Virus record (IMG/VR): IMGVR_UViG_3300028844_006278
Direction: 5' to 3' (one strand)
DNA from: a virus
DNA: 64,000 bases
Numbering within the stretch: position 1 is the stretch's first letter; the number at the start of each line of letters is the position of its first letter. The translations under genes were made by a program, and so were the position numbers. The notes under the pieces were generated by a model, which ran no database searches, had not been told where the DNA came from, and saw nothing but the letters and a program-made list of their open reading frames with translations. Below are positions 24,079 to 39,475 of this stretch, one piece after another.

Positions 24079-26415
24079 TTAGTGGGGGTCGCATTCGTCG
24101 TAGTCGAATAGAGATACCCCTGCCTGAGCAGTAGCGTCCTCTCCGTTCCCGCTCTGGTCCGGAACATCAGTAAGGGTAGACTGGTTGCCGACATAGTGGA
24201 ACAGTGCTCCGGCTGGGGGCTCCTTAAAGCATCCTGCCGCGTAGAAGTCGGACGGCGTCTCGTATGAGTCGTACATACATATGTGATCCAAATACCCGTC
24301 GACAGTGCCCATGCGTCCGGCGGAAGTAAGTACCGATATCCCGGTACCGGGCCAGCTAGTGCTGGTAGACTCGGAGTACATACTAGTCCCGTCGCTCAGC
24401 CATAGCTGCGCTGTGTTAGTAGAGGACTGGTATCTCCACACAAGCTGCCTCCAGACATTATCGTCCCACCCCAATGTAGAAGAGTACATACGGACATCGC
24501 CTACACTCGGATGGTGGCTGATGATTCTAATCTTAGTGCCGTCGCGGTCCCACCATACGTTCTGGATTGATCCGGACGACGGGCGATAGAACGCTGTGAA
24601 GCTGGCGGTGGAGTCCCATCGAAACCGGCCCGCTATTGTAAGATCTGTGAATGTGCTCCAGGTCGGTGTAGCATCCATTGTAATATACCCGGACCCTATG
24701 TCAAACGCCTGAAGTTGGGGAGCCGGGGCGGCGGCTACTAGGCTCGAAATCTCGTAGAGGCTAGACACATCGACCGGGCTAGACACATCCACAGGGCTCG
24801 ACACATCGACCGGGCTAGACACATCGACCGGGCTAGACACATCGACCGGGCTCGATACATCGACCGGGCTCGATACATCGACCGGGCTCGAAATCTCGTA
24901 GAGGCTCGAAATCTCGTAGAGGCTCGAAATCTCGTATAGGCTAGACACATCTACAGGGCTAGACACATCGACCGGGCTCGATACATCCACAGGGCTCGAC
25001 ACATCTACAGGGCTAGACACATCTACAGGGCTAGACACATCTACAGGGCTCGACACATCGACCGGGCTCGAAATCTCGTATAGGCTCGAAATCTCGTATA
25101 GGCTCGAAATCTCGTATAGGCTCGAAATCTCGTAGAGGCTAGACACATCTACAGGGCTAGACACATCGACAGGGCTAGACACATCGACCGGGCTCGATAC
25201 ATCGACCGGGCTCGACACATCTACAGGGCTCGAAATCTCGTATAGGCTCGAAATCTCGTAGAGGCTCGACACATCTACAGGGCTAGACACATCGACCGGG
25301 CTCGAAATCTCGTATAGGCTCGACACATCGACCGGGCTAGACACATCCACAGGGCTCGAAATCTCGTATAGGCTCGAAATCTCGTATAGGCTAGACACAT
25401 CTACAGGGCTCGACACATCTACAGGGCTAGACACATCTACAGGGCTCGACACATCCACAGGGCTCGACACATCCACAGGGCTCGACACATCCACAGGGCT
25501 CGACACATCCACAGGGCTAGACACATCTACAGGGCTAGACACATCTACAGGGCTAGACACATCTACAGGGCTCGACACATCTACAGGGCTAGACACATCT
25601 ACAGGGCTCGACACATCTACAGGGCTAGACACATCGACAGGGCTCGACACATCGACAGGGCTCGATACATCCACCGGGCTAGATACATCCACCGGGCTAG
25701 AAATCTCGTAGAGGCTCGAAATCTCGTATAGGCTCGAAATCTCGTATAGGCTAGACACATCTACAGGGCTAGACACATCTACAGGGCTCGACACATCTAC
25801 AGTGCTAGATACATCGACCGGGCTCGAAATCTCGTAGAGGCTCGAAATCTCGTAGAGGCTAGACACATCGACCGGGCTAGACACATCCACAGGGCTCGAC
25901 ACATCTACAGGGCTAGACACATCTACAGGGCTCGACACATCCACAGGGCTCGACACATCTACAGGGCTAGACACATCCACAGGGCTCGACACATCCACAG
26001 GGCTAGACACATCTACAGGGCTCGACACATCGACCGGGCTAGACACATCCACAGGGCTCGACACATCTACAGGGCTCGACACATCTACAGGGCTCGATAC
26101 ATCCTCAGCAAATGGATTATCGGAAGATGCAAATCTATCAGATAAGCTAGACATCTCCTGAGCCGTAAGAGATATTGCATAAGAGCTGCTGGAAGGAGTG
26201 AATGCAACAGAGACGCCCTGGGCGGCGATGGAAGATGCGCCGAGTAGCGAACTAGAGGAGCTGGTACCTAGGCAGTCCGCGCACGTTTCGTACGTAGGCA
26301 CGCCCCCCGCTTCAGGCGAGTTGGGGACAGTAGTCACGTATCTGGCAAACGAGAAGCACTTCCCGTCTATCTTGACTACTTCTCCGGCAAACTCAGGTAA
26401 TATACGATGGTCCAT
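24079..26415 (-). CDS. Mucin-like fibre/adhesin: N-terminal Cys module, ~75 Ser-rich hexapeptide repeats, C-terminal LamG-like lectin domain
   Basis: GEVVKIDGKCF...YETCADC; (SSPVDV)/(SSLYEI)n; DLTIAGRF, DNVWRQLVWRY, DGYLDHICMYD, DQSGNGEDAT. Confidence 0.7.
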   Translation of the reverse strand: MDHRILPEFAGEVVKIDGKCFSFARYVTTVPNSPEAGGVPTYETCADCLGTSSSSSLLGASSIAAQGVSVAFTPSSSSYAISLTAQEMSSLSDRFASSDNPFAEDVSSPVDVSSPVDVSSPVDVSSPVDVSSPVDVSSPVDVSSPVDVSSPVDVSSPVDVSSPVDVSSPVDVSSPVDVSSPVDVSSLYEISSLYEISSPVDVSSTVDVSSPVDVSSPVDVSSLYEISSLYEISSLYEISSPVDVSSPVDVSSPVDVSSPVDVSSPVDVSSPVDVSSPVDVSSPVDVSSPVDVSSPVDVSSPVDVSSPVDVSSPVDVSSPVDVSSPVDVSSPVDVSSPVDVSSLYEISSLYEISSPVDVSSPVDVSSLYEISSPVDVSSPVDVSSLYEISSLYEISSPVDVSSPVDVSSPVDVSSPVDVSSPVDVSSLYEISSLYEISSLYEISSLYEISSPVDVSSPVDVSSPVDVSSPVDVSSPVDVSSPVDVSSPVDVSSLYEISSLYEISSLYEISSPVDVSSPVDVSSPVDVSSPVDVSSPVDVSSPVDVSSPVDVSSLYEISSLVAAAPAPQLQAFDIGSGYITMDATPTWSTFTDLTIAGRFRWDSTASFTAFYRPSSGSIQNVWWDRDGTKIRIISHHPSVGDVRMYSSTLGWDDNVWRQLVWRYQSSTNTAQLWLSDGTSMYSESTSTSWPGTGISVLTSAGRMGTVDGYLDHICMYDSYETPSDFYAAGCFKEPPAGALFHYVGNQSTLTDVPDQSGNGEDATAQAGVSLFDYDECDPH
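24740..26103 (-). repeat. 18-bp coding tandem array (~75 units, two unit types)
   Basis: Units such as gggctagacacatctaca and aggctcgaaatctcgtat with synonymous variants; no spacers. Confidence 0.97.
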
Positions 26416-26428
26416 AACGTCCTTCTGG

Positions 26429-28261
26429 TTACTCTAGCGTAAGGGTCTCGCCGTCTTCTGTTATGAAGTTCTCCCCGGTCTCGAGAACTAACCCGAATTC
26501 TTCCGCAGATGACGAGGACGGTGACGTATCTAATACAGCTCCTACACAATCTAAGCAATCGAAGTACGGTCCGAGGACATTAATGGGAGGAGAGAGGAAG
26601 TCGAATACCACGTCGCAATACGGACTGGATGATCCCTCCTCTAGCATCGTAAAGCACGCGCTGCTGCTTACATCGAAATGAACTTCAAAAGTCTCGCCCG
26701 GAATAAACTGGTCTATGTAGTAGGAAGGAATGCACCACACTTCCTCGTCTTGGCAGTGAAGGGCCAGAGTCATATCAGGCATCGCCGCATCGTCGTTGAT
26801 AAGAGTCACTCGGCCGGATAGGTCTAAGACAGAACTGTCAGAGGAGGACGAGTTCTCTTCTATTGGCCTCTGGTCTACAAGAGCCTGCTGTCCGTCATCC
26901 TTCGCAGACAGCAGAGGATCCAATACATCGTCCGGTAGGCCACTAGCGCAGTCGAAGCACCCGTCGAATACATCATCCAAGGTCGGGGAAGACAGCACAC
27001 GCGTGCTACCTGAGGAGCAGGATGGAAGAGAGTCCGACGGGCCTGTATGTACGTCGATGAATGAATAGCAGACTCCGTCAATCTTAAGGACATCCCCGTC
27101 TACGAACCCGGCTACGCTAGAAGAGGCTCCGTTAAGCAGGTCATCCATACATGCCCACGTACAGCTGTAAATAGGCACGGTAGGCATTCCATATACCTCG
27201 TGTATGCCTCGGACGTCTTCGTAGGACTTAACAAGCCCGCCACCGCCCCACGATTTATCCAGCCGACCTGCTCCGTATATGTGCGAACGATTAACGACTG
27301 TGGGAAACAATACGGACTTATAGGAATGAGTAGCGTATACCGGAGTGCCCTTAAAGGATTCGTTGTGCTTAAATCCTAGAGAATGTCCTATCTCATGCGC
27401 AGCTACATAAGCTATGCTATATGAGTTAGTATCCCCTCTGTGCTTGTTAGAAGAGTCCTTAGACCAAGGACTGCCTCTATCAAAATGTAAGACAGTCCCT
27501 CCAGCTCCGTTCCCTATCTTAGCGTACCTAAGCGGATAGGAGGCGTGAGCTAGTGCGGACAGATCCTCCATGCCGAACCGGAAATCTCCTCTAGTTAGTG
27601 AGGGATTGCTATTCTCGTCACCCGTGTACGTGAACTCCACCGTAAGTTGGTTGGAGAACCCGAACGATGGGCTATATGCGAACTCAAACGCAGCCTTCCA
27701 TTGGTCGAACGCGGATTGTATCTCTGCGAGAAATTCAGCCTTCGTTACTGGATTTCCTGTAGTGCTGCGCTCTGCGCTAACATCCGCAACCGGGTCCTCT
27801 TTTAGCTCGAAGATAGGGGCATGCCACGGAGAGCCTCTGGTATATTTCTGAAGTGTCCACGTGAAGGAAATAGTCTGGGGACCCTCCGCTAGGTCATCTA
27901 CAGCATCCTTCAGCTCGTACCAGTATCCGCCCTCTTCACCGGTCCAGGCACCTTCGTACGTATAGGGCTCTGTTGCCACAAAGCAGTTATCGAGCCGCGC
28001 CCACTCCAAGCATTCGTACAAGCTGATAGATACAGAGCTCGAGCTTACAACCAATGTACTAGGTGTCGTGGAGCTAGGGACCTCAGAGACTGCTATAGCC
28101 GAACAATCTTCGCACGTATCATACCTAGATGCATCGGAGTCTAGGATATCCGGCTCTCCTGACGAGGCGTACCCGTCAAAGATATAGCATACGCCGTCTA
28201 TCTTCACCACATCTCCGGAGTAATCCGGGAGTAAGTATTCTCTGTCTCCGTATATAGGCAT
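26429..28261 (-). CDS. Matrixin-like (M10, metzincin) zinc metalloprotease flanked by three Cys modules
   Basis: AFDQW...DFRFG...LAHASYP...HFD...W, VAAHEIGHSLGFKH (27365-27397), SVLFP at the Met-turn; C-terminal LETGENFITEDGETLTLE. Confidence 0.85.
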   Translation of the reverse strand: MPIYGDREYLLPDYSGDVVKIDGVCYIFDGYASSGEPDILDSDASRYDTCEDCSAIAVSEVPSSTTPSTLVVSSSSVSISLYECLEWARLDNCFVATEPYTYEGAWTGEEGGYWYELKDAVDDLAEGPQTISFTWTLQKYTRGSPWHAPIFELKEDPVADVSAERSTTGNPVTKAEFLAEIQSAFDQWKAAFEFAYSPSFGFSNQLTVEFTYTGDENSNPSLTRGDFRFGMEDLSALAHASYPLRYAKIGNGAGGTVLHFDRGSPWSKDSSNKHRGDTNSYSIAYVAAHEIGHSLGFKHNESFKGTPVYATHSYKSVLFPTVVNRSHIYGAGRLDKSWGGGGLVKSYEDVRGIHEVYGMPTVPIYSCTWACMDDLLNGASSSVAGFVDGDVLKIDGVCYSFIDVHTGPSDSLPSCSSGSTRVLSSPTLDDVFDGCFDCASGLPDDVLDPLLSAKDDGQQALVDQRPIEENSSSSDSSVLDLSGRVTLINDDAAMPDMTLALHCQDEEVWCIPSYYIDQFIPGETFEVHFDVSSSACFTMLEEGSSSPYCDVVFDFLSPPINVLGPYFDCLDCVGAVLDTSPSSSSAEEFGLVLETGENFITEDGETLTLE

Positions 28262-28346
28262 AAAGCGGTCTCTGGTGTTTACAGGCAGTCAGGCGGCTGT
28301 GGGGAATACACTGGTGTAAGCACTTTAGTACAGTAAATCATAGAGG

Positions 28347-28781
28347 CTAGGTGGATATGCTGTCAGACGATGAGCTATCCGGCAAGGAAGACGATGAGTC
28401 TTTGCTTGAAGACGATGAGCTATCCGGCAAGGCAGACGATGAGCTATCCGGCAAGGCAGACGATAAGTCTTCGATTAAAGACGATGATCTATCCGGCAAG
28501 GCAGACGATGAGCTATCCGACAAGGCAGACGATGAGTCTTTGCTTGAAGACGATGAGCTATCCGGCAAGGCAGACGATGAGTCTTCGCTTGAAGACGAAG
28601 TAGACGAACAATCATCACACGTCTCGTAGGCCACAAGCTCGTCTAAGTCTATGTCGTCAGCAGCGGCGCTAGACTCGAAGCCTCGGAATTTATAGCAAAT
28701 TCCGTCAATCTTCACGACCTCGCCTACGTAGTGCGGTAATCGGTAATTTCTGTCTCCATATATGGGAGGGGGTATAGGCAT
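28347..28781 (-). CDS. Cys module plus Ser/Asp-rich repeat tail
   Basis: IYGDRNYRLPHYVGEVVKIDGICY...YETCDDC then (SSSALPD)n; N-terminus paralogous to 26429-28261. Confidence 0.75.
   Translation of the reverse strand: MPIPPPIYGDRNYRLPHYVGEVVKIDGICYKFRGFESSAAADDIDLDELVAYETCDDCSSTSSSSEDSSSALPDSSSSSSKDSSSALSDSSSSALPDRSSSLIEDLSSALPDSSSSALPDSSSSSSKDSSSSLPDSSSSDSIST
28364..28600 (-). repeat. Imperfect 21/24-bp coding repeats
   Basis: gacgatgagctatccggcaaggca recurs about six times. Confidence 0.85.
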
Positions 28782-28796
28782 GGTGCTGTTTCTCTT

Positions 28797-31700
28797 TTAT
28801 CCTATCGCTATGAGGTCTATAAACTCAGGTCCGTCTCCGCACCGTATTTGGTCCCTGTAGTATCTACCTTCCGGAGATGATCCACACACTTGGACGCCAT
28901 ACCATGACGTATCCAAGCTCGGACTAAGAAGCGTCATCTTCAGCTCCCATATACCTGTAGATGGCAGGTCTCCATCGGCCACGAACCGTACGTAGGTCTC
29001 GTCAAAGTACATCCGAGCATCTCTAGTGGGGCTATACTCTACTCTGTCCGCGGGCGTAGGATCTACTCCGCGGTCTGGGTTCCACTGATCGGTTCCGTTA
29101 AAGTAAAAGTCCCCTGACCAAGCATACAGAGAGGACTGGTCGAGGTCGTACGCTGAACACCCTGGAGCATTCAGCATAGTTCCTACATCTTGTACTGTCT
29201 CTAAGATGGAAGACGCGGAGCCGTCCCAGTACCCTATGCAGTTCGTACTGCTATCTGCCGGGGGAGCCGATCCGACGGTATGAGTAGAGGACGAGGAACT
29301 TGTCGGAGATACCTCGGAGGACGAGGAACTTGTCGGAGATACCGCGGAGGACGAGGAACTTGTCGGAGATACCGCGGAGGACGAGGAGGAGGAGTTAAAC
29401 ACATCGCAGGGTATATATCTCGCTAGACGCCTAGATGATATGGTCGAAGATGATGACACAAGAACAGAGCTCGAAGACGGACTAATAGAGGGCACAGATG
29501 AGCTGGACGGCAGTATCGACGAGCTGGACAGCATTATCGACGAGCTGGACAGTGTCACGGATGAGGACGAAGAGACGTCACATGGCTCATATACCGCGAT
29601 TAGCTGACTACTTACTGCGCTGCTACTGCTCTGCTCGCAGGTACGGCAGTCAGCGTAGGGGCCCGACACAAAGGTAGGAGTAAGTTCCAGAACAGTCCAC
29701 GTATCCGGACAGGATGTATCCATAGCACAGTCTGATATAGAGTAGCAGCGTCCGTCCAAGCTAAGAATATCTCCGACTTCCGCGTCGAATGGAATATTAG
29801 ACTTTGCCACAAATGTACACTTCTCCAACACGTCTGGAAAGCATGGAGAAAGCCTATAATACTCGCAGCAGTCGTCGCAATCCGCGTACGGACCTTTGAC
29901 CTCTGCCGGCTGAGGCAGTACTACGACAGTCGGCCATATGCAGTCTACCCCATCCCCTATGTATGTCTTCTTCCTACCCTTTATACGATAGCACTTAGGT
30001 CCGTAGTTCGGGCTCTCTGGATCTGTCTCAGGAAGCGTGATACTTATCGTATCTCCTATATCATACTCTACTGTGACGTAGGATTCGCAGATAAACCAGC
30101 AAGACTCCAGAATGTACGGGAAGCATGGCTCTAACTCCAGATATTCTGTGCATGGCGAGGACGAGGACGATGACGTAGCTCCTACACAATCTAAGCAATC
30201 CGCGTACGGACCTTTGACCTCTTCCGGTTGAGGCAGGACTTTGACTGTAGGCCATCTGCAGTCTGGCGCAGCCCCTATGTCTGTCTCCGTCCTATCCGCT
30301 ATACGATAGCACCTAGGGCTCTCCGGAGCCTCTCCAGGAAGCCTGATATTTATCGTATCTCCTATATCATACTCTACTGTGACGTAGGATTCGCAGATAA
30401 ACCAGCAAGACTCAAAAATGTGCGGGAAGCATGGCTCTAACCCCAGATATGCTGTGCATGACGGGAGCGATGGGGAGGAAATAGACGGCGCGCTGCTGCT
30501 GCTACTACTTATTACGTCAGAAGATGATGACGAGACCGTGTCGCACGGCTCGTATACAGCAATCACGGACACACTGCTCTCGCTAGTGCTTATGCTGCTC
30601 TCGCTGGTGCTTATGCTGCTCTCGCTGGTGCTTATGCTGCTCTCGCTGGTGCTTATGCTGCTCTCGCTGGTGCTTATGCTGCTCTCGCTGATGCTTATGC
30701 TGCTCTCGCTGGTGCTTATGCTGCTCTCAGAGGACACAGTAGAGCTAGACGACCCCGCACATGCTGAGATATACGCACGCGCCTCGTACGCGTAGCAATA
30801 CTCCCCTTCTACGCAGGGATGCGCAACGCCCGGCTCAGTACCTATACCGCACTGCTCTTCTCCGTACAGGCCTGCCGTCACTGACGGAAAATCATCCCCT
30901 CGTACGACCAGCCACCCGGTAGATAGGCCTGACCTATATGTAGCGAAGATGATCCACCAGTCCGGATCAGATACACCTCTATAGGCCGGGAAGGAGTTAA
31001 ATGTACCAACATGTGCGTACTGCTGATCTGCGCCTGCGTACTTGTCTGGGTTTTCGTTAACCGAAAACGACAGTGAGTAGCAGGTTTCGAACGCGCACCG
31101 TCGGGCGGCCGTAGATCCTGTAAGTGAAGACAGCTTGGCGGCACATGCTGAATAGTCCGAGTACGGGCCCTCGACCTGTAGTCCTCCCAGGGACGGCACT
31201 ATAAGCTCGCATCCGTCTCCTTGGCCCTGATAGTCGGCGACTTCGTCAAGTATCTCGTAGCACTCTGTTCCTGCTATAAACGTGTCTCCGATCTGAGCTC
31301 CGAGCGGCGCCTCGAATGCACTGATATAGAAGCACTGGTAAGGGGAGCCCCCTTCTATATCTGCTGGCAGAAGATTAGGAGGTCCACCATCGTCCTCGAA
31401 TGCCGGGTTGGATATTTTGAAGAAGGTCTCCTCGCACGGCAGATATAAGGGGTACACCTCTGCTGAGGACTCTACTAGCGGGACTGCCGTTATACACCAC
31501 GACGCGGTCAGAGAGTAATATCCAGGCGTCTGCTCGATCAGCGTGTGGTCGAACCCGCATAGGATTCCACCCTCCTCTTCCGTTATCTCAACAGCGCTGG
31601 AGGACAGGCGCAGGACCACTTCCGACACGTCCGCGCCCTCTCGATACAGGCATTCGTCGGTGAGTTCTCTGAAATCGCCTCCCGGACATCCTATGTAATG

Positions 31701-31892
31701 GCAGGGGCCGTGGACTTCCTGCCCGGAGGAGCTCGTAGGGCATCCCACGGCATCGTCAGGGCCGGTACTAGCAGGCAGGTTCTTAACCACAAAAATATCC
31801 GGATCCTCGCCCTCTCTAGTAGGGGAGACTTCCAGGACAGCCAAGTAGCTATGCACCGCCCGATTATACACCTTGTGTATAATCAGTTCCAC
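28797..31892 (-). CDS. Large Cys/Ser-rich modular protein (putative fibre/scaffold)
   Basis: Four extended Cys modules ending GPYxDCxxC or similar, three isolated (I/L)AxYxPCD motifs, Ser-rich repeats; GGAGG RBS before GTG. Confidence 0.75.
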   Translation of the reverse strand: MELIIHKVYNRAVHSYLAVLEVSPTREGEDPDIFVVKNLPASTGPDDAVGCPTSSSGQEVHGPCHYIGCPGGDFRELTDECLYREGADVSEVVLRLSSSAVEITEEEGGILCGFDHTLIEQTPGYYSLTASWCITAVPLVESSAEVYPLYLPCEETFFKISNPAFEDDGGPPNLLPADIEGGSPYQCFYISAFEAPLGAQIGDTFIAGTECYEILDEVADYQGQGDGCELIVPSLGGLQVEGPYSDYSACAAKLSSLTGSTAARRCAFETCYSLSFSVNENPDKYAGADQQYAHVGTFNSFPAYRGVSDPDWWIIFATYRSGLSTGWLVVRGDDFPSVTAGLYGEEQCGIGTEPGVAHPCVEGEYCYAYEARAYISACAGSSSSTVSSESSISTSESSISISESSISTSESSISTSESSISTSESSISTSESSISTSESSVSVIAVYEPCDTVSSSSSDVISSSSSSAPSISSPSLPSCTAYLGLEPCFPHIFESCWFICESYVTVEYDIGDTINIRLPGEAPESPRCYRIADRTETDIGAAPDCRWPTVKVLPQPEEVKGPYADCLDCVGATSSSSSSPCTEYLELEPCFPYILESCWFICESYVTVEYDIGDTISITLPETDPESPNYGPKCYRIKGRKKTYIGDGVDCIWPTVVVLPQPAEVKGPYADCDDCCEYYRLSPCFPDVLEKCTFVAKSNIPFDAEVGDILSLDGRCYSISDCAMDTSCPDTWTVLELTPTFVSGPYADCRTCEQSSSSAVSSQLIAVYEPCDVSSSSSVTLSSSSIMLSSSSILPSSSSVPSISPSSSSVLVSSSSTISSRRLARYIPCDVFNSSSSSSAVSPTSSSSSAVSPTSSSSSEVSPTSSSSSTHTVGSAPPADSSTNCIGYWDGSASSILETVQDVGTMLNAPGCSAYDLDQSSLYAWSGDFYFNGTDQWNPDRGVDPTPADRVEYSPTRDARMYFDETYVRFVADGDLPSTGIWELKMTLLSPSLDTSWYGVQVCGSSPEGRYYRDQIRCGDGPEFIDLIAIG
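29287..29387 (-). repeat. 30-bp coding repeat x3 (SSSSxVSPTS)
   Basis: gaggacgaggaacttgtcggagatacc three times. Confidence 0.85.
30044..30413. repeat. Direct repeat from a recent module duplication (64 identical nt, 306-nt offset)
   Basis: 30044-30107 is identical to 30350-30413. Confidence 0.9.
30574..30728 (-). repeat. 21-bp coding tandem repeat (SSISTSE x7)
   Basis: gctgctctcgctggtgcttat units. Confidence 0.92.
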
Positions 31893-31937
31893 TTATACAT
31901 CCTCCTGCTCATCGTGAGTATCTGTCCGCCGAGGACG

Positions 31938-32237
31938 CTAGGGTAAGATAAACATATCGCCGTCTCCTAGAATATACCCAGGATCTGTGATATTAACCAC
32001 TTCGATGTTCGATAACGACGACCGCTGGAGCCGGACGTTAGTCTTTATATGATCGATAGCCACAGGCAGTACCCGCTCCATTGCTACCTTAGATCGGAAA
32101 AGCATTGCGATATTGTCTGACCGGTACAGGTCTCCCAGGTCTGCTGAGAGCGGGTGAACCATGAGGTCAGTAGGTGATGCGATGGATATCAGGACCTTTG
32201 TCGGATCTATGTCTGGGAGCTCTGGATCTTCATTCAT
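31938..32237 (-). CDS. Hypothetical protein, paralog of the C-terminal half of 34162-34548
   Basis: IASPTDL..HP...LYR...MLFRS...HIKTNV aligns with IASYADI..YP...FFR...LIFQS...QIKNTV. Confidence 0.65.
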   Translation of the reverse strand: MNEDPELPDIDPTKVLISIASPTDLMVHPLSADLGDLYRSDNIAMLFRSKVAMERVLPVAIDHIKTNVRLQRSSLSNIEVVNITDPGYILGDGDMFILP

Positions 32238-32299
32238 ATCAGTACCTACTGGTGTGACCTAGCATACGTATTCTGTTTTCAGCGACATATAAAAGTGAC

Positions 32300-34147
32300 T
32301 CACGTATGGACAATCACGCACTGTATGTCCCCTCGCTGCCTAGTAACATACAAGAGTTCGCCCCAGATCTCTCCGGATATGTGGATCTTATCCCCGGCAG
32401 CGAGTTGCCAAACCGGTCCGGATAGGGGGAAGTACTCGGCCGCTCTAGTCGGATCCAATGCCTGGGCAGGGCCGTCTGAGCCTACAGGTGGCCGAAAGAT
32501 CTGGTAGGGCAGGGCATTAAGTATATGCTCATCACCATCCGATAATCGGAGGCCCAGCTTATAATACTCGCTTATGTTCGCTCGAGAGGTGCCGCTCACT
32601 CGTTTAACCCCGACGGCAGGCCGGCCGGACTCTGATAGGTAGGACGAGACTACCCTATGGCCCTCCTGCAGATCTTCGCACGAATATGGACCACCTAGAG
32701 GAGCAGGCACTGTGCAGACAGTAGTCCCCGGAAGTAGCGGTATGTCCTCAGACTCCGGTATAGCGATTGTAGGGCCTTCATACCGAATGTCCGTGTACGT
32801 CGATAGATTATGCACTAGGAATCCGTTGGCGAATAAGGTTAGGTAATTTGCGACGTCCCATACAGCCACAGACTCTTCAGGTCCTTGGTGCTCATCTATA
32901 CTTAAGATAGGATGCCATGCCCTATCCTTAGAGTACAACTCATCCTCTGCTCGTAGAGGCAGTATCTCCGATAGATATGGGTACTCCGCTGTGGCCTTGG
33001 CTGCATCTATGGCCTTCCAAGCTTCCTCTCCGGGAGCGGATCTAGCATATACGGGCTGAGTGTCTGAGATCTCGAGAGTACCTCCGGATAATGTCCGGAT
33101 CTGCCAGTACGCAAGCACGGATGATTTACAGGTACCTCTAATGGGCTGGAAATCTAGAGCGCCGTCGTACTCTGAGTATGAGAATACAGTATCTCCAGAG
33201 GCTAGATCCGATATAGGAACAACTCCCCGATCGCCGGTTAGTACGGTAGTAGAGCGGGATACAAGGGATCCCTTATTGTGTAAGAGCACCCCATCTGCGA
33301 AGTAGTTCCTATTGTCCTCTACCGCCCATAAATTATATACCTGCTTCTGCCCGGGATATTCCGATACAGAGGATATCTGATCCCACTCTCCACTCTTTGT
33401 TAGGACAAAGTCCCCTGCCGACATCTTCAGCAGTCGTCGTAGATACGGGTGCGATTTACGGGATCGGGAGGGGCAGTAGGATGCCCACCCTATCCCCGAT
33501 CCGGGCTTACGGACATACACTGGCTGGGAGGTGGTGATCCCCAGAGACGTCCCAGACTGTAGATTCAGCGTGATGTACCGGTCAACTAGCGGAGCATCTA
33601 TGCCGAGGACTCGTTTACCTTCGACCTGCTCGCTTACCTCGTTGTAGGAGAGCACAATGTCGCCTACCTGCACATCTTCGACTTTTATCTCCCCTCCTCC
33701 TGGAACTGATATTAAGGTGCTGGCCACTACGCATCCTCCTGGAATATCGTCCGAGGACGAGGACCCCGCCCCAACCTGCAACGTGCACAGATCCTGCATA
33801 AATACATGGGAGGCATTACGTACATACGGCATAGATATCTGCACAGGCGCGTCGAGCGTTACCCCTCGTACAGAGGATACGACAATATCTCCGTCTTCGC
33901 TGCGGAGAACGGCGCCCTCTACCAGTCCTCGATCCTTCTGGATAAAGCCAGAGGTGTTCTCAGCAGAGAAGAACTTGGTAGACGCTGAGAATACGTGGAT
34001 GTCATTTATTACGACAAATTCACGTACTGTTGTCTGAACTGCTTTGAATACCTTCCTCGTCTCAATATCTAGCTCCGGGGACAGCGTCGCTATCTCCATA
34101 CCCCTCTTCCAGGTCGGTAAAGCATCAAGCACGTCTTGATCCGTCAT
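32300..34147 (-). CDS. Tandem Hint (intein-like/BIL) domain protein
   Basis: aa139-291 CVVASTLI...VEDVQVGDIVLS...VYNL...NYFADGVLLHN; aa~295-447 ending LFANGFLVHN; degenerate copies at aa~10-125 and ~470-615. Confidence 0.88.
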   Translation of the reverse strand: MTDQDVLDALPTWKRGMEIATLSPELDIETRKVFKAVQTTVREFVVINDIHVFSASTKFFSAENTSGFIQKDRGLVEGAVLRSEDGDIVVSSVRGVTLDAPVQISMPYVRNASHVFMQDLCTLQVGAGSSSSDDIPGGCVVASTLISVPGGGEIKVEDVQVGDIVLSYNEVSEQVEGKRVLGIDAPLVDRYITLNLQSGTSLGITTSQPVYVRKPGSGIGWASYCPSRSRKSHPYLRRLLKMSAGDFVLTKSGEWDQISSVSEYPGQKQVYNLWAVEDNRNYFADGVLLHNKGSLVSRSTTVLTGDRGVVPISDLASGDTVFSYSEYDGALDFQPIRGTCKSSVLAYWQIRTLSGGTLEISDTQPVYARSAPGEEAWKAIDAAKATAEYPYLSEILPLRAEDELYSKDRAWHPILSIDEHQGPEESVAVWDVANYLTLFANGFLVHNLSTYTDIRYEGPTIAIPESEDIPLLPGTTVCTVPAPLGGPYSCEDLQEGHRVVSSYLSESGRPAVGVKRVSGTSRANISEYYKLGLRLSDGDEHILNALPYQIFRPPVGSDGPAQALDPTRAAEYFPLSGPVWQLAAGDKIHISGEIWGELLYVTRQRGDIQCVIVHT

Positions 34148-34161
34148 AATAGTATGCTCCT

Positions 34162-34548
34162 TTAGCAGTCGTTAACTATTACTTCTACAGCCTCTTCGCC
34201 GTTAAGTCGAACCAGATCCTCTACTGTATTTTTAATCTGCCCTTCTATGAGATCCCACGTATCTGAGAGGTGCGGGAGACTCTGGAAGATGAGATCTACG
34301 TAATACTTACGGAAGAACGGAGAATCCTCGCCGGGATCATTCTCTGGATAGTCGGCTATATCGGCATAGGACGCTATGTGTACGAAGAGGTCTGCGAGTA
34401 CATCATAGGAAGGAACGGAGGGAAGTCTCTGGTACACGAAGACCGTCGGCGGAAGGTTATCGGAAGTCTCTGAGACCCAGACACGCATCCTATGTCGACT
34501 ATCCTCCTCTAGTGTCACCCTCCTTGAGATCTGTATGTAGCTGCTCAT
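34162..34548 (-). CDS. Hypothetical (probably virion) protein
   Basis: 128 aa in operon; halves paralogous to two downstream genes. Confidence 0.75.
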   Translation of the reverse strand: MSSYIQISRRVTLEEDSRHRMRVWVSETSDNLPPTVFVYQRLPSVPSYDVLADLFVHIASYADIADYPENDPGEDSPFFRKYYVDLIFQSLPHLSDTWDLIEGQIKNTVEDLVRLNGEEAVEVIVNDC

Positions 34549-34551
34549 ATT

Positions 34552-34821
34552 CTAGACTGCTCCGCTGAGATAGAGGGCCTCTCCGTGTAGTTTCTCCGAC
34601 GAGCCCTGCGTCGGCACAGGTATTATGCCGGATTTGATGGCCGCCTTAAGAAGATCTAGACCTATTGTCGGATATCCTAACTCCTGGATTTCAGATGCCC
34701 CCGGCAGGCCTTGCTCCGCCAACTCATCTGTAGGATGCTCGTCTCCCTTTATGAGGGAGGCAAGGATACAGCTGGCTGCCGCCAATCCGTCACTATTGTT
34801 AAAAGTACCGGGAGCAATCAT
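34552..34821 (-). CDS. Hypothetical protein
   Basis: 89 aa, overlaps the upstream stop. Confidence 0.6.
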   Translation of the reverse strand: MIAPGTFNNSDGLAAASCILASLIKGDEHPTDELAEQGLPGASEIQELGYPTIGLDLLKAAIKSGIIPVPTQGSSEKLHGEALYLSGAV

Positions 34822-37097
34822 TTATAGGGAGATGGTGGAGCATATAGCAGGGTCGGGGCGGTGGCGTCAAGCGTGATACCTGTGTTTCTCCGTATATACG
34901 GAGCATCTACAAACCCGCGTACGAACGAAGTGTCGCCTGCGTTCAGAGTCTTCCCTATAGATATAGTGTTCGCCGATGGTAGGATGCTTCCGGCGAATGC
35001 CCTAGAGCCCAGCACGGTGCCGTCCAGGCTGAACTGCATGACGTTCCCCACCCTGTTCCATTCTAGCCAGTACCACGTGTCGTTATTTATAGTAGGAGTC
35101 CCACCACATCCCCAGTACCCTCCGTCCGGTCCCAGTCCTGCCATCCCCGCCTCAGTCCATGCCGAATATAGTGTTTTACCTCCGCTTGCTGCCCAGCCGG
35201 CAGGCTCGAAGGATATCACCCAGCACTCCCCGTTAGCGGAACCCCAGTTCGCAAAAATGTTCTGGTTTTGGGTATTATCTGTAGTACGCCATGCTATCCC
35301 TATCTCGAAGTTTTCTGTGCCGAAGTTGAAGCACGAGTGATAGTCTGCGGTAGCTAGGTCGGCACTAGTGTGCCTAGGGTCGTCGTACGTATTTCCCCAG
35401 TTCGGGAACGCGCCGGCAGTCATTGCGCCGTTGCCTCTTGTATTTATAGTCACATAGCTGCCTGCTGCGAAGCCTGTTATGCTGTCGGTGCCTATGTACG
35501 CCTGGGCGTTCGATACAGACGGTGTGCCTAGGGTAAGAGTTTGGTGCTGCTCTGTAGCATCTACCGCCGACCCTCCGTCTACATTAAGCGCAAGCAGAAC
35601 CTCGCAGCACATGTCTGCGCAGCAGTCGCAGTCATCGTACGACACTAGGGGAGTACTTACTGTATCTGGGGCCACGTCCGTCGTGTACTCTACGAAGGAA
35701 TAGCACTCTGAGCTGGACTGGAGTATAGAAGTAATGCCTGTTATTCCACCGGCATCCGACTCTTCGAATACATACTCGCCTCCTATTCCATCGCAGTCCT
35801 CGAACCTCATGCTTAGCGTAGTAGTATCACAAGTGGAGCAAAACTCGAACTCGTAGTCTATACTAGCGGCAGTAGTGGCAGCGGCTACGTATTGATCAAA
35901 CTCATAGCATACGCCGTCAATGCGTACGACCTCTGAGGTAGTGGTAGCGTCTGAGACAATCTGAGAGGAGGCCGGGTTATCGCACCTGACGTACTGTCGG
36001 TTATTGCCTGCACATGTCGCGCAATCAGCAAACTCGGCATCTATATCTACGCCCGTATGCGTGACAGGATCCGTGGTAGTGCTGATGAAGTCATAGCACA
36101 CTCCTCCTATCTTTATAGTCTGGGAACTTGTGTACTGGCTAGAAATAACCACCGCAGACGATCCGAGTATGCACTCCTCGTATAGCCTATATGTCTCACA
36201 AGCTCCACACGATGTGTGCGACGCATCAGGAGCCGCGTTGGTAGACGCGTCTTCTGTGAACTCGAAGAACTCGTAACACCCGCTGTTGATCTCTATTACA
36301 GAGTCTGTGGCCGGCACCTGGTTCTCAGGTATAATGACCTCGGCAACCCCGTCTACGCAAGACTTATACCTAGCCTGGATGCTAGTAGCAGCGCAGTCGG
36401 CGCAATCCGTGTAGTTCGAATAATCGATAGAGGTATGTGTCGTAGCAGCCAGTGTTGAGGATGTGGACGAGTAGCACACTTCATCAACTCGTACGATAAC
36501 TTGTCCCGGAGCTACGCTTTCCCGGATAACTAAGCTGGGGGCGGCAGCCGCACAATCTACGTACTCAATGGCGGAGAATGTGCTAGCGCATGACTCGCAA
36601 GTTACGAACTCGTTATCCACTGCAAACACGTCCGCCGCGGTCTCTACATACTCTGTAGACGAGTAGCATTTACCGCTGACCTCGACAATAGCTGCGACAG
36701 TTACCGCGTCGTCTATGTAGATAATGTCCGACGGATCTGCGCAGTTGGTATACCGTATGTTTAGGTCTATATCAGAGCAGTCCTGGCAGGTGTCGAACTC
36801 GTAGTCGAACTCTGTGTCGGTGATAGCGTCTTGGGTAGCGCCTACTCGCTCGTAACAGGCTCCGTCAATCTGGATAATTTGGGCATCTCCGGCTACAACC
36901 GGACTTAGTACTACAGGCATCTCAGGACCCCCGCAGTCTGTGTACTTTACGTTCGCTTCCCTGGCCGAAGAACTCCCCGGGCACTCCACAAACAGGACCT
37001 CGGAACATACCGTAAACCCCTCCCCATCGCACCGCAGCTCGCATCCCAAGGGGCGCTCTCTTACGGTGACATTTTCTATTCTGTGCTGGGAAGACAT
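34818..37097 (-). CDS. Fibre/adhesin: seven tandem four-Cys modules and a C-terminal LamG-like domain
   Basis: 7x YxxC...IxGxCY...(Y/F)xxCxxC; then FNFGTENFEIGIAW, NDTWYWLEWNRVGN, FSLDG, ISIG, GFVD. Confidence 0.8.
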   Translation of the reverse strand: MSSQHRIENVTVRERPLGCELRCDGEGFTVCSEVLFVECPGSSSAREANVKYTDCGGPEMPVVLSPVVAGDAQIIQIDGACYERVGATQDAITDTEFDYEFDTCQDCSDIDLNIRYTNCADPSDIIYIDDAVTVAAIVEVSGKCYSSTEYVETAADVFAVDNEFVTCESCASTFSAIEYVDCAAAAPSLVIRESVAPGQVIVRVDEVCYSSTSSTLAATTHTSIDYSNYTDCADCAATSIQARYKSCVDGVAEVIIPENQVPATDSVIEINSGCYEFFEFTEDASTNAAPDASHTSCGACETYRLYEECILGSSAVVISSQYTSSQTIKIGGVCYDFISTTTDPVTHTGVDIDAEFADCATCAGNNRQYVRCDNPASSQIVSDATTTSEVVRIDGVCYEFDQYVAAATTAASIDYEFEFCSTCDTTTLSMRFEDCDGIGGEYVFEESDAGGITGITSILQSSSECYSFVEYTTDVAPDTVSTPLVSYDDCDCCADMCCEVLLALNVDGGSAVDATEQHQTLTLGTPSVSNAQAYIGTDSITGFAAGSYVTINTRGNGAMTAGAFPNWGNTYDDPRHTSADLATADYHSCFNFGTENFEIGIAWRTTDNTQNQNIFANWGSANGECWVISFEPAGWAASGGKTLYSAWTEAGMAGLGPDGGYWGCGGTPTINNDTWYWLEWNRVGNVMQFSLDGTVLGSRAFAGSILPSANTISIGKTLNAGDTSFVRGFVDAPYIRRNTGITLDATAPTLLYAPPSPYK

Positions 37098-37128: not shown

Positions 37129-38652
37129 CTATACTGTACAACAGTACGCTACGGCGGCTTCGTACGCCATAGCGCCTTCGTCGAATACTGTATAGCATGT
37201 AAAATAATCCACCGTGTTTGGGTCGTCCTCGCAGTTGGCAGGCGCATCTGTATTTAGCGCTTGGTCTAGAGCAGCTTGTGCAGCATCCTCTGCGGTTGCT
37301 CCGTACGCCACTGAAATGAACTGAGTTGATCCCGGGTAATCCGCGCACATTAGAGCCTCGGTGGGACAGGCAGGGGAACATGCGTCCCCCGCTTTCCCCA
37401 TAGCCGTTGCCGCAGCATCGCAAGTTTCCTCGCACCAGGGCGCAGGATCGTCCTGAGCAACAATAGGTGTGAAGTCCTCTAAGTATGTAGGAGGAGTTCC
37501 CGAGACTATAGTTGCCCATACCGGCTGCTCTTGGTAATCTCTGTTTACATCCAAGTCCTCCGGAGGCAGCGGAGGCAGATTTCCGGGTATTACTACGGAC
37601 TCTGATCGAGGAGGCTTTACGTTCCACTGGAGTCCGGAGATTACACCATCGTGCACGACTATGTTGGCATAGTATACATAAAGTCTCCCATCCTCGTAGC
37701 ATTGGATATCTACCACAACCGGGATAATCCCTAGCGGCTCTTCTCTGCTCACTTCGTCAGATTCGTAAGGATTTCTCGGTGTACGGACAGACTCGTCTTG
37801 GTTGATATCTATATTAGTAGTCAGACTGTTCGGGGACGGCCAGCGAGGAAAATGCAGCTCTCTATTTACAAACTCATCGGCACTAGAAGACCACCCGCAG
37901 TCGTCTTTTAGGCAGCAGCTCTTGGGATATCCTGCAACCAGTTGGAAGCTCTGGTCGGTATCGTCTGCTCTATAGACATCCCGTACCTCTGGCTTCTCCC
38001 TACGAGTTAGCCTAATCTCGCCATTTACTATCTCCGCCTCTATGTGATCGGGCAGATCGTCTGGTTGCGGACAGCATCCTGTATCTAATGGAGGGCCGTC
38101 TGGGTTGAACTCCCGGACTGTTAGAGTTTCTCCGCCGGAAACTACCGTTGTGCCGTCTCCGCCTCCAAACGAGAAGAACGGGATAGTGTCTATAGATGGA
38201 AAGCGAGGCCGTCCGATAGATAGTGAGTTGGACTCTACGCCCTCTCCGGGACAGTAGCAGGTATCCTCCAGTACATCGGTCTGCAGGGCGCCGCTGATGT
38301 TGCCGGTAAGGGACCATAGGTCTGGATATTCTAGAGATGTGGGAGGTACAGGGCAGTCAGGGTCTAGAGGTGTGTAGGGATTGGTAAGAGAATCCCACCT
38401 GCTGTCGTACCCCCCTGTGTCTATCTCCACGTCTGGGGCATAGGATCCCGGCAGCCGCGCATAGTTATTGGCATTGTTCAGAGCAAATGTGTCGCACCCT
38501 GTAGTGGGAGTGACTGCTACGGAGTCTGTCGCCTCGCATACCGCGCATCCTCGAGCGGGCCCAGACCCTTCTGTCCCGTCCGGACATGCGCCGAAGTCCC
38601 GATACACGGCCCCTCGCCTAGTACTCGTATAAGATGTAAAAAGGCGTCTCAC
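37129..38652 (-). CDS. Cys/Pro/Asp-rich putative tail fibre-associated protein
   Basis: 507 aa in the structural operon; VVVDIQC strand; many Cys. Confidence 0.65.
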   Translation of the reverse strand: MRRLFTSYTSTRRGAVYRDFGACPDGTEGSGPARGCAVCEATDSVAVTPTTGCDTFALNNANNYARLPGSYAPDVEIDTGGYDSRWDSLTNPYTPLDPDCPVPPTSLEYPDLWSLTGNISGALQTDVLEDTCYCPGEGVESNSLSIGRPRFPSIDTIPFFSFGGGDGTTVVSGGETLTVREFNPDGPPLDTGCCPQPDDLPDHIEAEIVNGEIRLTRREKPEVRDVYRADDTDQSFQLVAGYPKSCCLKDDCGWSSSADEFVNRELHFPRWPSPNSLTTNIDINQDESVRTPRNPYESDEVSREEPLGIIPVVVDIQCYEDGRLYVYYANIVVHDGVISGLQWNVKPPRSESVVIPGNLPPLPPEDLDVNRDYQEQPVWATIVSGTPPTYLEDFTPIVAQDDPAPWCEETCDAAATAMGKAGDACSPACPTEALMCADYPGSTQFISVAYGATAEDAAQAALDQALNTDAPANCEDDPNTVDYFTCYTVFDEGAMAYEAAVAYCCTV

Positions 38653-38653
38653 G

Positions 38654-39475
38654 TTAGCGTACCAAGATCTCCAATTTCCCTTCAGATCTTTGTAACCCTA
38701 ATGCCGCTGACGTATCGACATCTATGTCTCCATTAGTCGGAAGCAGTCCATTTATCGTAAAGACTGGCTCGGCTGAGTAGGATGAGGAAGACGATCCGTC
38801 CCCATAGTCTACCGGGCACGGATCTTCGTAAGAGATGTCTCCTTCGTCTGTGAATCCAAGACCGTTTCCTACTCCTACGGAGAGGGTGAGGACGTCGGAT
38901 GAATAGGATACTGCGGCGTTATATCCGTCTGCCCAATCCATGCTAGACTCTCCACCTACACTTAGTGTAAGGATCTCTTCCTCGGGGTCGTCGGCGCAGG
39001 CGGGAGAGTTTAAGAAAGACAGGGATTGGACGTGCTCTGTATACCACTGTGCCCGGCAGGGCTCTACCTGTATGTAGCACGTTCCCGATCCGGCGTTAAT
39101 GATATCCGCGGAGGAGAAGACAAGTACTCCGGTAGCGTCCCCGGGGCCGGAGCTAGACACTGATCCTATATCGGAAACTGTCCCCACCTGATTAGGTACA
39201 TCGAATGTAATGAACCAGGACTGGCCTGACGAGTTCATAGCCTCGAACACAAGCTCTGTGGTAGTGGCTCCTGCTGAGTATGAGATAAGGTGAACCGTCG
39301 GAGCGCGCCCGGTAGAGACTGCCGGGGCCGCCGAGGAGGACGGCATAAGTACATCAGCATCTCCCTGAACTACAAAGAAGACGTCCAGAATGCCGGACGT
39401 GATAGTAGCGTTTGCGGCTGACAGGGTAGGGACAAATGGATAATCCTGCTGGGCAGATACGTGGCGCGTGCTCAT
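38654..39475 (-). CDS. Putative tail fibre/baseplate-associated protein (YPF...TING family)
   Basis: QQDYPF, ILDVFF, VFTINGLLPTNGDI. Confidence 0.6.
   Translation of the reverse strand: MSTRHVSAQQDYPFVPTLSAANATITSGILDVFFVVQGDADVLMPSSSAAPAVSTGRAPTVHLISYSAGATTTELVFEAMNSSGQSWFITFDVPNQVGTVSDIGSVSSSGPGDATGVLVFSSADIINAGSGTCYIQVEPCRAQWYTEHVQSLSFLNSPACADDPEEEILTLSVGGESSMDWADGYNAAVSYSSDVLTLSVGVGNGLGFTDEGDISYEDPCPVDYGDGSSSSSYSAEPVFTINGLLPTNGDIDVDTSAALGLQRSEGKLEILVR

What the first reader, a model, noticed from the sequence alone, without database searches (positions are those of the whole stretch)
24079..37097. Candidate new system: modular virion display apparatus built from one shared Cys module with swappable lectin/protease cargo
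Seen: five co-oriented genes share a ~55-60 aa acidic module (YxxC-x~20-IDGxCY-x~20-YxxCxxC). There are 7 copies in 34818-37097, 4 extended copies in 28797-31892, 3 in 26429-28261 and 1 each at the N-termini of 28347-28781 and 24079-26415. Ser-rich linkers join the modules to different payloads: LamG-like domains (twice), an M10 protease, or a bare Ser/Asp tail. The cluster continues the tail/fibre operon and contains a poly-Hint gene. Inference: a branched, cellulosome-like appendage on the virion that binds glycans and digests a protein surface layer.
Basis: partly seen in the sequence, partly recalled or inferred. Interest (0 to 1): 0.88.

Follow-up and report, generated by a model that had tools for sequence, protein, structure and literature searches.

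The report
Plug-in Cys-module docking system on phage tail
An uncultured 165-kb marine phage builds its tail-end appendage genes from one small, uncatalogued four-cysteine module; three cargo proteins (a lectin-like domain, a metalloprotease, a serine-rich tail) start with a copy lacking its first strand, and a neighbouring hub protein carries three spare copies of that strand, so the cargoes probably snap onto the hub.

Summary
An HMM of the seven ~60-aa modules of 34818-37097 finds partial copies at the N-termini of 28347-28781, 26429-28261 and 24079-26415, and nowhere else in the 164,893-bp phage genome. The "extended" copies of 28797-31892 are a divergent, insertion-bearing version (hhalign probability 80%).

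- **Fold.** The module folds confidently (pLDDT 92). It matches nothing in Pfam, NCBIfam, PHROGs, PDB or BFVD.
- **Spread.** A profile search of 1.84 billion proteins finds 221 metagenomic relatives. Most of the best hits have one N-terminal copy, a Ser linker and a variable cargo: LamG, LRR, an Erv1 thiol oxidase, or many unknown Cys-rich domains.
- **New point.** N-terminal copies always lack strand 1 and its Cys (0 of 100 have it; 130 of 150 internal copies keep a Cys there). The hub protein 28797-31892 carries three orphan strand-1 motifs (Y-x-P-C-D) between Ser linkers.
- **Support.** A distant syntenic phage has the same design, with six orphan strands and three acceptor proteins. AlphaFold2 models an orphan strand as a confident β-strand (pLDDT 88) between disordered linkers in one natural relative.

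The branched, cellulosome-like reading is therefore partly supported. Binding, virion location and targets remain untested. The scan has noted Cys-strand "beads" on linkers in other marine phages.

The parts
34818..37097 (-). P0005, 759 aa: N-terminal Cys-rich anchor, seven full type-A modules, LamG-like tip
36951..37097 (-). aa 1-49 of P0005: Cys-rich N-terminal segment shared with the hub of phage G001 (12/26 identical, E 1e-8); putative baseplate anchor (inferred)
   Evidence: sits just downstream of the conserved 507-aa gene in both phages
35610..36950 (-). Seven tandem type-A four-Cys modules (aa 50-496)
   Evidence: single-module AlphaFold2 model pLDDT 92.2
34821..35600 (-). LamG / concanavalin-like jelly-roll domain (aa 500-759)
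   Evidence: Atlas feature score 0.98, TM 0.70-0.73 to Laminin_G_3 clusters; no Pfam hit
28797..31892 (-). P0004, 1031 aa: hub protein with four type-B modules, three orphan strand-1 donors in Ser-rich linkers, and a C-terminal domain of unknown fold
30540..30566 (-). Donor 1 (aa 443-451, IAVYEPCD) flanked by Ser linkers
   Evidence: strand-1 PSSM rank 9 of 125,880 genome windows
29577..29603 (-). Donor 2 (aa 764-772, IAVYEPCD)
   Evidence: PSSM rank 18
29403..29429 (-). Donor 3 (aa 822-830, LARYIPCD)
   Evidence: PSSM rank 5
29631..30455 (-). Type-B modules B1-B3 (aa 480-754); B1 and B2 are a 306-bp tandem duplication
31134..31340 (-). Degenerate type-B module B0 (aa 185-253)
   Evidence: E 0.0027 against an HMM of B1-B3 only
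28347..28781 (-). P0003, 144 aa: N-terminal 3-Cys acceptor module (28596-28781) plus Ser/Asp repeat tail
26429..28261 (-). P0002, 610 aa: acceptor (28088-28261), M10-like zincin (27356-27751; HExxHxxGxxH at 27365-27397), internal type-A module with an insertion (26942-27139), type-B module (26534-26755), acidic tail
24079..26415 (-). P0001, 778 aa: acceptor (26260-26415), ~450-aa PVDVSS/LYEISS stalk (18-bp array 24759-26103), LamG-like domain (24082-24723)
32300..34147 (-). P0006: protein with tandem Hint-like units. A neighbour inside the cluster, with no shown link to the module system

Best explanation
This is the variable, distal end of the tail/baseplate operon of an uncultured marine phage. 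The genome is 164,893 bp with direct terminal repeats.

Its genes are assembled from a small, acidic four-Cys β-module of about 60 aa. The motif order is Y-x-x-C, then I-D-G-x-C-Y, then Y/F-x-x-C-x-x-C. The module is used in two ways.

1. Complete copies in tandem make a stalk. P0005 has an N-terminal anchor, seven modules and a LamG-like tip.
2. A copy without its first β-strand and first Cys sits at the very N-terminus of three cargo proteins, where it acts as a socket. The cargoes are P0001 (LamG-like domain on a long repeat stalk), P0002 (M10-type metalloprotease) and P0003 (Ser/Asp tail).

The missing strand is supplied in trans by three orphan Y-x-P-C-D strands set between flexible Ser linkers of the hub protein P0004. 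This would complete the fold and bring a fourth Cys to the other three, giving either a metal site or an intermolecular disulfide lock. The result would be a branched appendage with exchangeable binding and enzymatic heads.

Shown: the module family, its confident fold prediction, the systematic N-terminal truncation, the strand-1 identity of the orphan motifs, their recurrence in a distant phage, and the cargo diversity.

Inferred: trans binding, virion location, Zn versus disulfide, and the targets (glycan, protein layer).
For: - **Restricted to this cluster.** The module occurs only in these five genes of the whole phage genome.
- **Confident fold.** A single module folds with pLDDT 92.2 from 17 sequences. 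Strand 1 is residues 2-5, directly before Cys 6.
- **A real family.** The profile search finds 221 proteins at E<=1e-3 among 1.84e9 representatives. Of the 147 best hits with a module call, 86 have one copy starting at residue ~3-10 that matches profile positions ~12-59.
- **Systematic truncation.** Of 100 N-terminal copies, none has an aromatic-x-x-C upstream and 3 have any Cys. Of 150 internal copies, 130 have the upstream Cys.
- **Orphan motifs are strand 1.** A strand-1 PSSM built only from 28 non-window modules ranks the three P0004 motifs 5th, 9th and 18th of 125,880 windows of the genome. Most higher ranks are true strand 1s of P0005.
- **Second phage.** G001 (160,705 bp) is syntenic with 27-46% aa identity in flanking genes. 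Its hub has six orphan strands between Ser linkers, ranked 1, 4, 11 and 28 of 11,337 windows. It has three proteins with N-terminal truncated copies, one carrying two Laminin_G_3 domains (E 6e-41).
- **Cis complementation predicted.** P0083 has an acceptor, an S10 linker, an orphan GYIYLPC and another Ser linker in one chain. AlphaFold2 gives pLDDT 92-96 for the acceptor, 58 for the linker, 88 with β-strand 64-69 for the orphan, and <50 beyond residue 77. The weak structural alignments to compact β-domains span residues 1-74.
- **Strand 1 tolerates a flexible tether.** P0012 has its strand 1 separated from the rest of its module by an S7 linker.
- **Matching counts and pattern.** There are three donors and three acceptors. 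Two donors are identical (IAVYEPCD) and one differs. Two acceptors are 58% identical and one is 35-43% identical to them.
- **Genomic position.** Gene gaps are 13-85 nt. The cluster is a variable island between conserved tail-region genes.
- **Thiol chemistry.** One relative (P0112) tethers an Erv1/Alr thiol oxidase by the same acceptor (E 1.9e-9).
Against: - No direct test of donor-acceptor binding was obtained.
- P0002 and P0003 carry a short N-terminal extension (P-I-Y-G-D) that one alignment places in register with strand 1, without the Cys. It could fill that position itself.
- In G001 the counts do not match: six donors against three acceptors.
- Among the 148 module-bearing relatives, orphan strands in Ser linkers are rare and not enriched over control residues.
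- The scan's notes on other marine phages describe similar Cys-strand 'beads' as a recurring stalk feature. In one case a docking reading was judged unlikely (e1-5830124; not tested here).
- The P0083 model could not be inspected at coordinate level. The exact position of the orphan strand relative to the three Cys is therefore unknown.
- Virion association rests on gene position only.
Confidence: 0.5

Rival explanations
1. Conventional fibres with a shared stalk and anchor domain. The module is only a rigid spacer, like Ig or FN3 repeats in other fibres. Each N-terminal copy binds its own site on the baseplate or on another fibre, as ordinary conserved fibre N-termini do. The orphan strands are degenerate module remnants or structural beads in the linkers, not docking sites.
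For: - N-terminal conserved domain plus variable C-terminus is the standard layout of phage receptor-binding proteins (established knowledge; Ackermannviridae examples in PMC8825819 and PMC11414711).
- Donor and acceptor counts differ in G001.
- Orphan strands are not enriched in the wider family.
- The P-I-Y-G-D extension may occupy the strand-1 position.
- The scan's notes on other phages report similar beads with no partner.
Against: - It does not explain why 100 of 100 N-terminal copies lack exactly strand 1 and its Cys while 87% of internal copies keep the Cys.
- It does not explain why the orphan motifs score as strand 1 with an independent PSSM in two distant phages.
- It does not explain why AlphaFold2 gives an orphan strand pLDDT 88 between disordered linkers.
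Confidence: 0.3
2. Self-complementing or chain-forming tags. Donor strands complete acceptors on the same chain, or on copies of the same protein head-to-tail. This would give polymers or closed loops rather than a hub with different cargoes.
For: P0083 and P0040 each carry an acceptor and an orphan strand in one chain. The AlphaFold2 result for P0083 is a cis arrangement.
Against: In G000 and G001 the donors are on proteins that have no truncated acceptor of their own. The acceptors are on proteins without donors.
Confidence: 0.1
3. Not virion parts. The proteins would be released at lysis, or act inside the cell, as a free enzyme-and-lectin complex acting on host envelope or debris.
For: There are no structural-protein hits for any of the five genes in PHROGs, apart from a repeat-driven one. 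No particle data exist.
Against: They are co-oriented with and directly downstream of baseplate genes. They lie in the variable island between conserved tail-region genes in two phages. One acceptor gene of G001 is inserted among conserved baseplate-region genes.
Confidence: 0.07

Closest known systems
Branched receptor-binding complexes of Ackermannviridae (CBA120 TSP1-4) and similar anchor-branch tailspike systems
   Same: Several receptor-binding or enzymatic proteins with exchangeable heads attach through conserved N-terminal parts to one anchor protein. That anchor also fixes the complex to the baseplate (PMC8825819 and PMC11414711, abstracts). The genes are adjacent and highly variable.
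   Different: Those complexes dock through T4 gp10-like domains of trimeric tailspikes. Here no such domains were detected. The proposed joint is a ~60-aa Cys module split between two chains, set on long Ser-rich flexible linkers, with lectin-like and protease heads rather than depolymerase tailspikes.
Cellulosome scaffoldin (cohesin) / dockerin systems
   Same: One scaffold bears repeated docking sites on flexible Ser/Thr/Pro-type linkers. Many enzymes and binding modules each carry one small docking module.
   Different: There is no cohesin or dockerin homology. The docking site here is a single β-strand of about 9 residues, not a folded domain. It is on a virus, not a cell surface.
Donor-strand complementation of chaperone-usher pili, and engineered split domains (SpyTag/SpyCatcher type)
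   Same: An incomplete β-domain is completed by a strand from another chain, possibly followed by a covalent lock.
   Different: The fold is unrelated. Cys chemistry is proposed instead of an Ig-fold groove or an isopeptide bond. This is recalled from established knowledge and was not tested here.
Zinc-ribbon proteins such as ribosomal protein bL33
   Same: A small β-rich domain with four Cys including one C-x-x-C. The best, though weak, structural matches are of this kind (Z 3.1, rmsd 3.2 Å, 41 residues aligned).
   Different: There is only one C-x-x-C knuckle; the other two Cys come singly from β-strands. The match is within noise, and metal binding is untested.
Cys β-strand 'beads' on Pro/Thr or Ser linkers noted by this scan in other marine phages (e1-5830146, e1-5409998, e1-5869927)
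   Same: Short Cys-containing β-strand motifs are repeated along flexible linkers of giant tail-cluster proteins. Cys-stapled β-modules carry nested or attached enzymes, including a metzincin.
   Different: No sequence link to those loci was found or tested. The present case adds a matching acceptor, which is a module lacking exactly that strand.

Membership tests
Peptidase M10 (matrixin), PF00413 - P0002 aa 171-302 | Pfam score above the gathering cut-off | tested here: met
   50.3 bits against cut-off 24, E 3.1e-13
Peptidase M10 (matrixin), PF00413 - P0002 | HExxHxxGxxH zinc-binding motif | tested here: met
   HEIGHSLGFKH at aa 289-299
Peptidase M10 (matrixin), PF00413 - P0002 | Met-turn methionine downstream of the third His | tested here: inconclusive
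   The likely turn reads S-V-L-F-P, with Leu and no Met. The position was assigned by eye, not by structure.
Laminin_G_3 / concanavalin-like (PF13385) - C-termini of P0005 and P0001 | Pfam profile match | tested here: not met
   No hit at E<=1
Laminin_G_3 / concanavalin-like (PF13385) - C-termini of P0005 and P0001 | Jelly-roll fold like family members | tested here: met
   Atlas feature score 0.98, with all ten best hits in the family. TM 0.70-0.73 (P0005) and 0.78-0.82 (P0001). Both sides are predicted models.
Ackermannviridae-type branched tailspike complex | T4 gp10-like docking domains in the anchor protein | tested here: inconclusive
   No Pfam or PHROG hit in P0004 or P0005. No fold model of the P0004 N-terminal region was made.
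Cellulosome cohesin/dockerin | Cohesin (PF00963) or dockerin (PF00404) domains | tested here: not met
   No hit at E<=0.1 in any of the five proteins
Zinc ribbon | Fold match to solved zinc ribbons, with four Cys ligands close together | tested here: inconclusive
   Best Z 3.1 (bL33-like), within noise.
Hint / intein superfamily - P0006 | Profile match above the curated cut-off | tested here: inconclusive
   Pfam Intein_splicing 28.5 bits (<35.8), Hint 23.0 (<29.7), Hint_2 23.7 (<28.4). TIGR01443 intein_Cterm 22.4 bits (>15.6). Two internal units are 29% identical.
Any catalogued family for the Cys module itself | Match in Pfam, NCBIfam, PHROGs, PDB sequences or PDB/BFVD folds | tested here: not met
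   No hits

The most novel reading that the evidence does not exclude
The module is a split-domain docking device used widely by uncultured marine phages. A nine-residue donor strand with one Cys, repeated along a flexible hub, completes a three-Cys acceptor at the N-terminus of any cargo protein. The joint is locked by an intermolecular disulfide or a shared metal site. This would give a virion-borne, cellulosome-like, freely re-assortable display of lectins, proteases and other heads, and in some phages even of the thiol oxidase that would make the lock.
Probability: 0.35. Interest if true: 0.9.

Novelty: new variant of a known kind. Interest (0 to 1): 0.77.

Why it matters
Host range in phages is set by how receptor-binding heads are mounted and exchanged. 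The known branched complexes use large trimeric adaptor domains.

A joint made of a nine-residue strand and a 50-residue socket would be the smallest plug-in connector known on a virus. It would explain how marine phages shuffle lectin, protease and unknown Cys-rich heads. It would also give function to more than 200 protein clusters that are now only "hypothetical".

If it locks covalently, it could be a compact protein-coupling tag. The claim is directly testable with two short recombinant fragments.

Tried and rejected
Gene neighbourhoods of the metagenomic relatives could not be read.
- **IMG/VR scans.** Scans with P0005, degenerate module patterns, P0012, P0083, P0062 and an alignment found only G001. 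The two pattern hits were chance matches.
- **Genome contigs.** No relatives were found in 185,579 prokaryote species genomes.
- **Metagenome scan.** It gave only two short contigs of a ~67%-identical phage with the same gene order.
- **P0004 homologue searches.** These returned only a 98%-identical copy and a low-complexity mucin hit.
- **Fold searches.** Foldseek against PDB and BFVD gave nothing at E<=0.001. VIA wide search gave a best Z of 3.1. The PDB sequence-profile search gave nothing.
- **Orphan strands in relatives.** Orphan strands in Ser linkers are rare among the 148 module-bearing relatives and not enriched over control residues. Most PSSM hits there belong to undetected divergent modules.
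- **Erv1/Alr.** Not found in G000 or G001, but the control genomes did not ring either, so this is uninformative.
- **Sequencing runs.** No RNA holder is listed. The DNA holders are marine metagenomes.
- **Literature.** Searches for donor-strand or Cys-rich docking in phage fibres found nothing relevant.
- **Chance or low-complexity artefact.** Rejected on the HMM statistics and the confident fold prediction.
Full report
**Context.** The window is bases 22565-86564 of a 164,893-bp IMG/VR virus record with direct terminal repeats, rated complete. It encodes:
- a large terminase (18424-20172, phrog_675, E 1.9e-50);
- a DNA polymerase, helicases and an SbcC-like nuclease;
- a baseplate-wedge homologue (47158-48729, phrog_6, E 1.1e-8).

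The terminase is at most 26% identical to that of any phage in GenBank. DNA of the locus is held in marine metagenome runs. The five genes of the finding lie on the minus strand at the downstream end of the baseplate operon, separated by 13-85 nt.

**The module.** P0005 (34818-37097) has seven tandem units of about 60 aa, each with four Cys at fixed spacing.
- An HMM of these seven alone finds the N-termini of P0003, P0002 and P0001 at E 1.5e-7 to 1.1e-6. After iteration it also finds an internal copy in P0002.
- It finds nothing else in the whole phage genome.
- The repeats of P0004 and the last repeat of P0002 are a longer type B that ends G-P-Y-x-D-C-x-x-C. The small type-A profile does not link them. 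A profile enriched with 235 metagenomic copies aligns to them over 58 columns with all four Cys in register (probability 79.7%, E 1.5e-5). I read type B as the same module with insertions.
- A single module, folded with 17 paralogous and orthologous copies as its alignment, gives pLDDT 92.2. Its elements in order are strand 2-5, helix 17-20, strands 25-28, 31-37 and 50-52, and helix 55-59 carrying C-x-x-C.
- Nothing in Pfam, PHROGs, NCBIfam, PDB sequences, or PDB and BFVD folds matches it. The best structural neighbours are zinc-ribbon ribosomal proteins at Z 3.1, which is within noise.

**The family.** The profile search of 1.84 billion representatives finds 221 proteins at E<=1e-3. All those looked up are unnamed metagenomic proteins. 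Of the 147 best hits with a module call, 52 have several copies. Another 86 have a single copy that begins at residue ~3-10 and matches only profile positions ~12-59. This copy is followed by a Ser-rich linker and then by unrelated, often Cys-rich, domains. Recognisable cargoes are Laminin_G_3, LRR, collagen repeats, an HpiC1-like domain and an Erv1/Alr thiol oxidase (P0112).

**The truncation is systematic.** Of 100 N-terminal copies, none has an aromatic-x-x-C upstream of the core Cys and only 3 have any Cys there. Of 150 internal copies, 130 have that Cys. In the window, in-frame stops lie 5-9 codons upstream of the three starts. So the N-terminal form is a three-Cys module without strand 1.

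**The orphan strands.** P0004 contains IAVYEPCD twice and LARYIPCD once, each set between Ser-rich linkers built from tandem DNA repeats. The idea of pairing them with the truncated modules was also in an earlier first-reader note (e1-5660998). I tested it in four ways.
1. **Independent PSSM.** A nine-column PSSM of strand 1, built only from 28 metagenomic modules, ranks the three motifs 5th, 9th and 18th of 125,880 six-frame windows of the phage genome. Most higher ranks are the true strand 1s of P0005.
2. **A second phage.** G001 (IMGVR_UViG_3300046787_000675, 160,705 bp) shares gene order with 27-46% aa identity in the flanking genes. Its protein directly after the conserved 507-aa gene has the same N-terminal Cys segment as P0005 (E 1e-8). 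That segment is followed by six orphan strands between Ser linkers (I-Y-[IV]-Y-S-E-C four times, Y-N-Y-E-E-C twice), three full modules and a C-terminal domain. These orphans rank 1, 4, 11 and 28 of 11,337 windows. The same locus has three proteins with N-terminal truncated modules, one with two Laminin_G_3 domains.
3. **Natural variants.** P0012 has its strand 1 separated from the rest of its module by seven Ser. P0083 and P0040 carry an acceptor and an orphan strand in one chain.
4. **AlphaFold2 on P0083.** The alignment covered only the acceptor part. The model gives pLDDT 92-96 for residues 1-50, 58 for the Ser linker, 88 with a β-strand at 64-69 for the orphan motif, and below 50 from residue 77 on. 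The weak structural alignments to compact β-domains span residues 1-74. I could not inspect coordinates, so the exact register is unknown.

**Model for this phage.**
- P0005 is a baseplate-anchored stalk of seven modules with a LamG-like tip.
- P0004 is a hub whose three donors receive P0001, P0002 and P0003.
- P0001 is a LamG-like domain on a ~450-aa PVDVSS/LYEISS stalk.
- P0002 is an M10-type zincin with an intact HExxHxxGxxH motif.
- P0003 is a Ser/Asp tail.
- The donors fall into two identical plus one different. The acceptors fall into two at 58% identity plus one at 35-43%. This hints at specific pairing.
- Whether the four Cys hold a metal or form disulfides is open. The thiol-oxidase cargo of P0112 points to disulfide chemistry somewhere in such systems.

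**Weak points.**
- No binding data exist, and virion location is inferred from position only.
- The P-I-Y-G-D extension of P0002 and P0003 might itself fill the strand-1 site.
- Donor and acceptor numbers differ in G001.
- Orphan strands are not enriched within the acceptor-bearing proteins themselves.
- The scan's notes on other marine phages describe Cys-strand beads without partners.
- How P0004 itself attaches is unknown, and its N- and C-terminal domains have no known relatives.
- The Hint protein (two clear tandem units) is absent from G001 and shows no link to the system.

**Comparison and verdict.** Functionally, the closest known systems are the branched tailspike complexes of Ackermannviridae (PMC8825819, PMC11414711) and, by analogy, cellulosomes and donor-strand complementation in pili. 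None shares sequence or fold with this module. I rate it a new variant of a known kind: a branched, modular receptor-binding apparatus with a previously undescribed connector.
- About 0.8: the module is a shared mounting device for swappable cargo.
- About 0.5: the donor-acceptor mechanism operates in trans.

Noticed in passing
P0112 (metagenomic relative, ENA, 20.5-kb contig): An N-terminal acceptor module is fused through a Cys-rich spacer to an Erv1/Alr sulfhydryl-oxidase domain (PF04777, E 1.9e-9; W-H-N-E-V-N motif). A thiol oxidase is thus mounted by the same connector, which hints at disulfide formation in these appendages.
   Followed up: partly
window 32300-34147 (-): The protein is made largely of tandem Hint-like units. 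Two units are 29% identical (E 3e-23), with an intein C-terminal motif hit. It is conserved in the close relative (L005) but absent from phage G001. Its role is unknown.
   Followed up: partly
window 24759-26103: An 18-bp tandem array of 74.7 copies encodes alternating PVDVSS and LYEISS units (~450 aa). Other linkers of the cluster are also young tandem repeats (21 bp x 7.4 at 30574-30728; 30 bp x 3.4 at 29287-29387; 24/69 bp at 28364-28581).
   Followed up: partly
window 29877-30460: A 306-bp tandem duplication (84-86% identical) created type-B modules B1 and B2 of the hub, which is evidence of recent module amplification.
   Followed up: no
window 24079-24110 (C-terminus of P0001): P0001 ends in F-D-Y-D-E-C-D-P-H, which resembles the donor motif (aromatic-x-x-C-D). 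It may simply be the last strand of the LamG domain.
   Followed up: no
window 37129-38652 (-) and L007:5168-6451: A conserved 507-aa / 427-aa Cys-containing protein with no family hit lies directly upstream of the anchored module protein in both phages. It is a candidate baseplate partner of the shared N-terminal anchor segment.
   Followed up: no
P0083 (metagenomic relative): It lies on a 340,706-bp contig, so the module family also occurs in a much larger, jumbo-sized genome. That contig could not be fetched.
   Followed up: no
L007:3044-3655: In phage G001 an acceptor-bearing gene is inserted between conserved baseplate-region genes (homologues of window 40186-41097 and 39472-40185). Its C-terminal part looks repeat-like, but Pfam gave no hit.
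   Followed up: no
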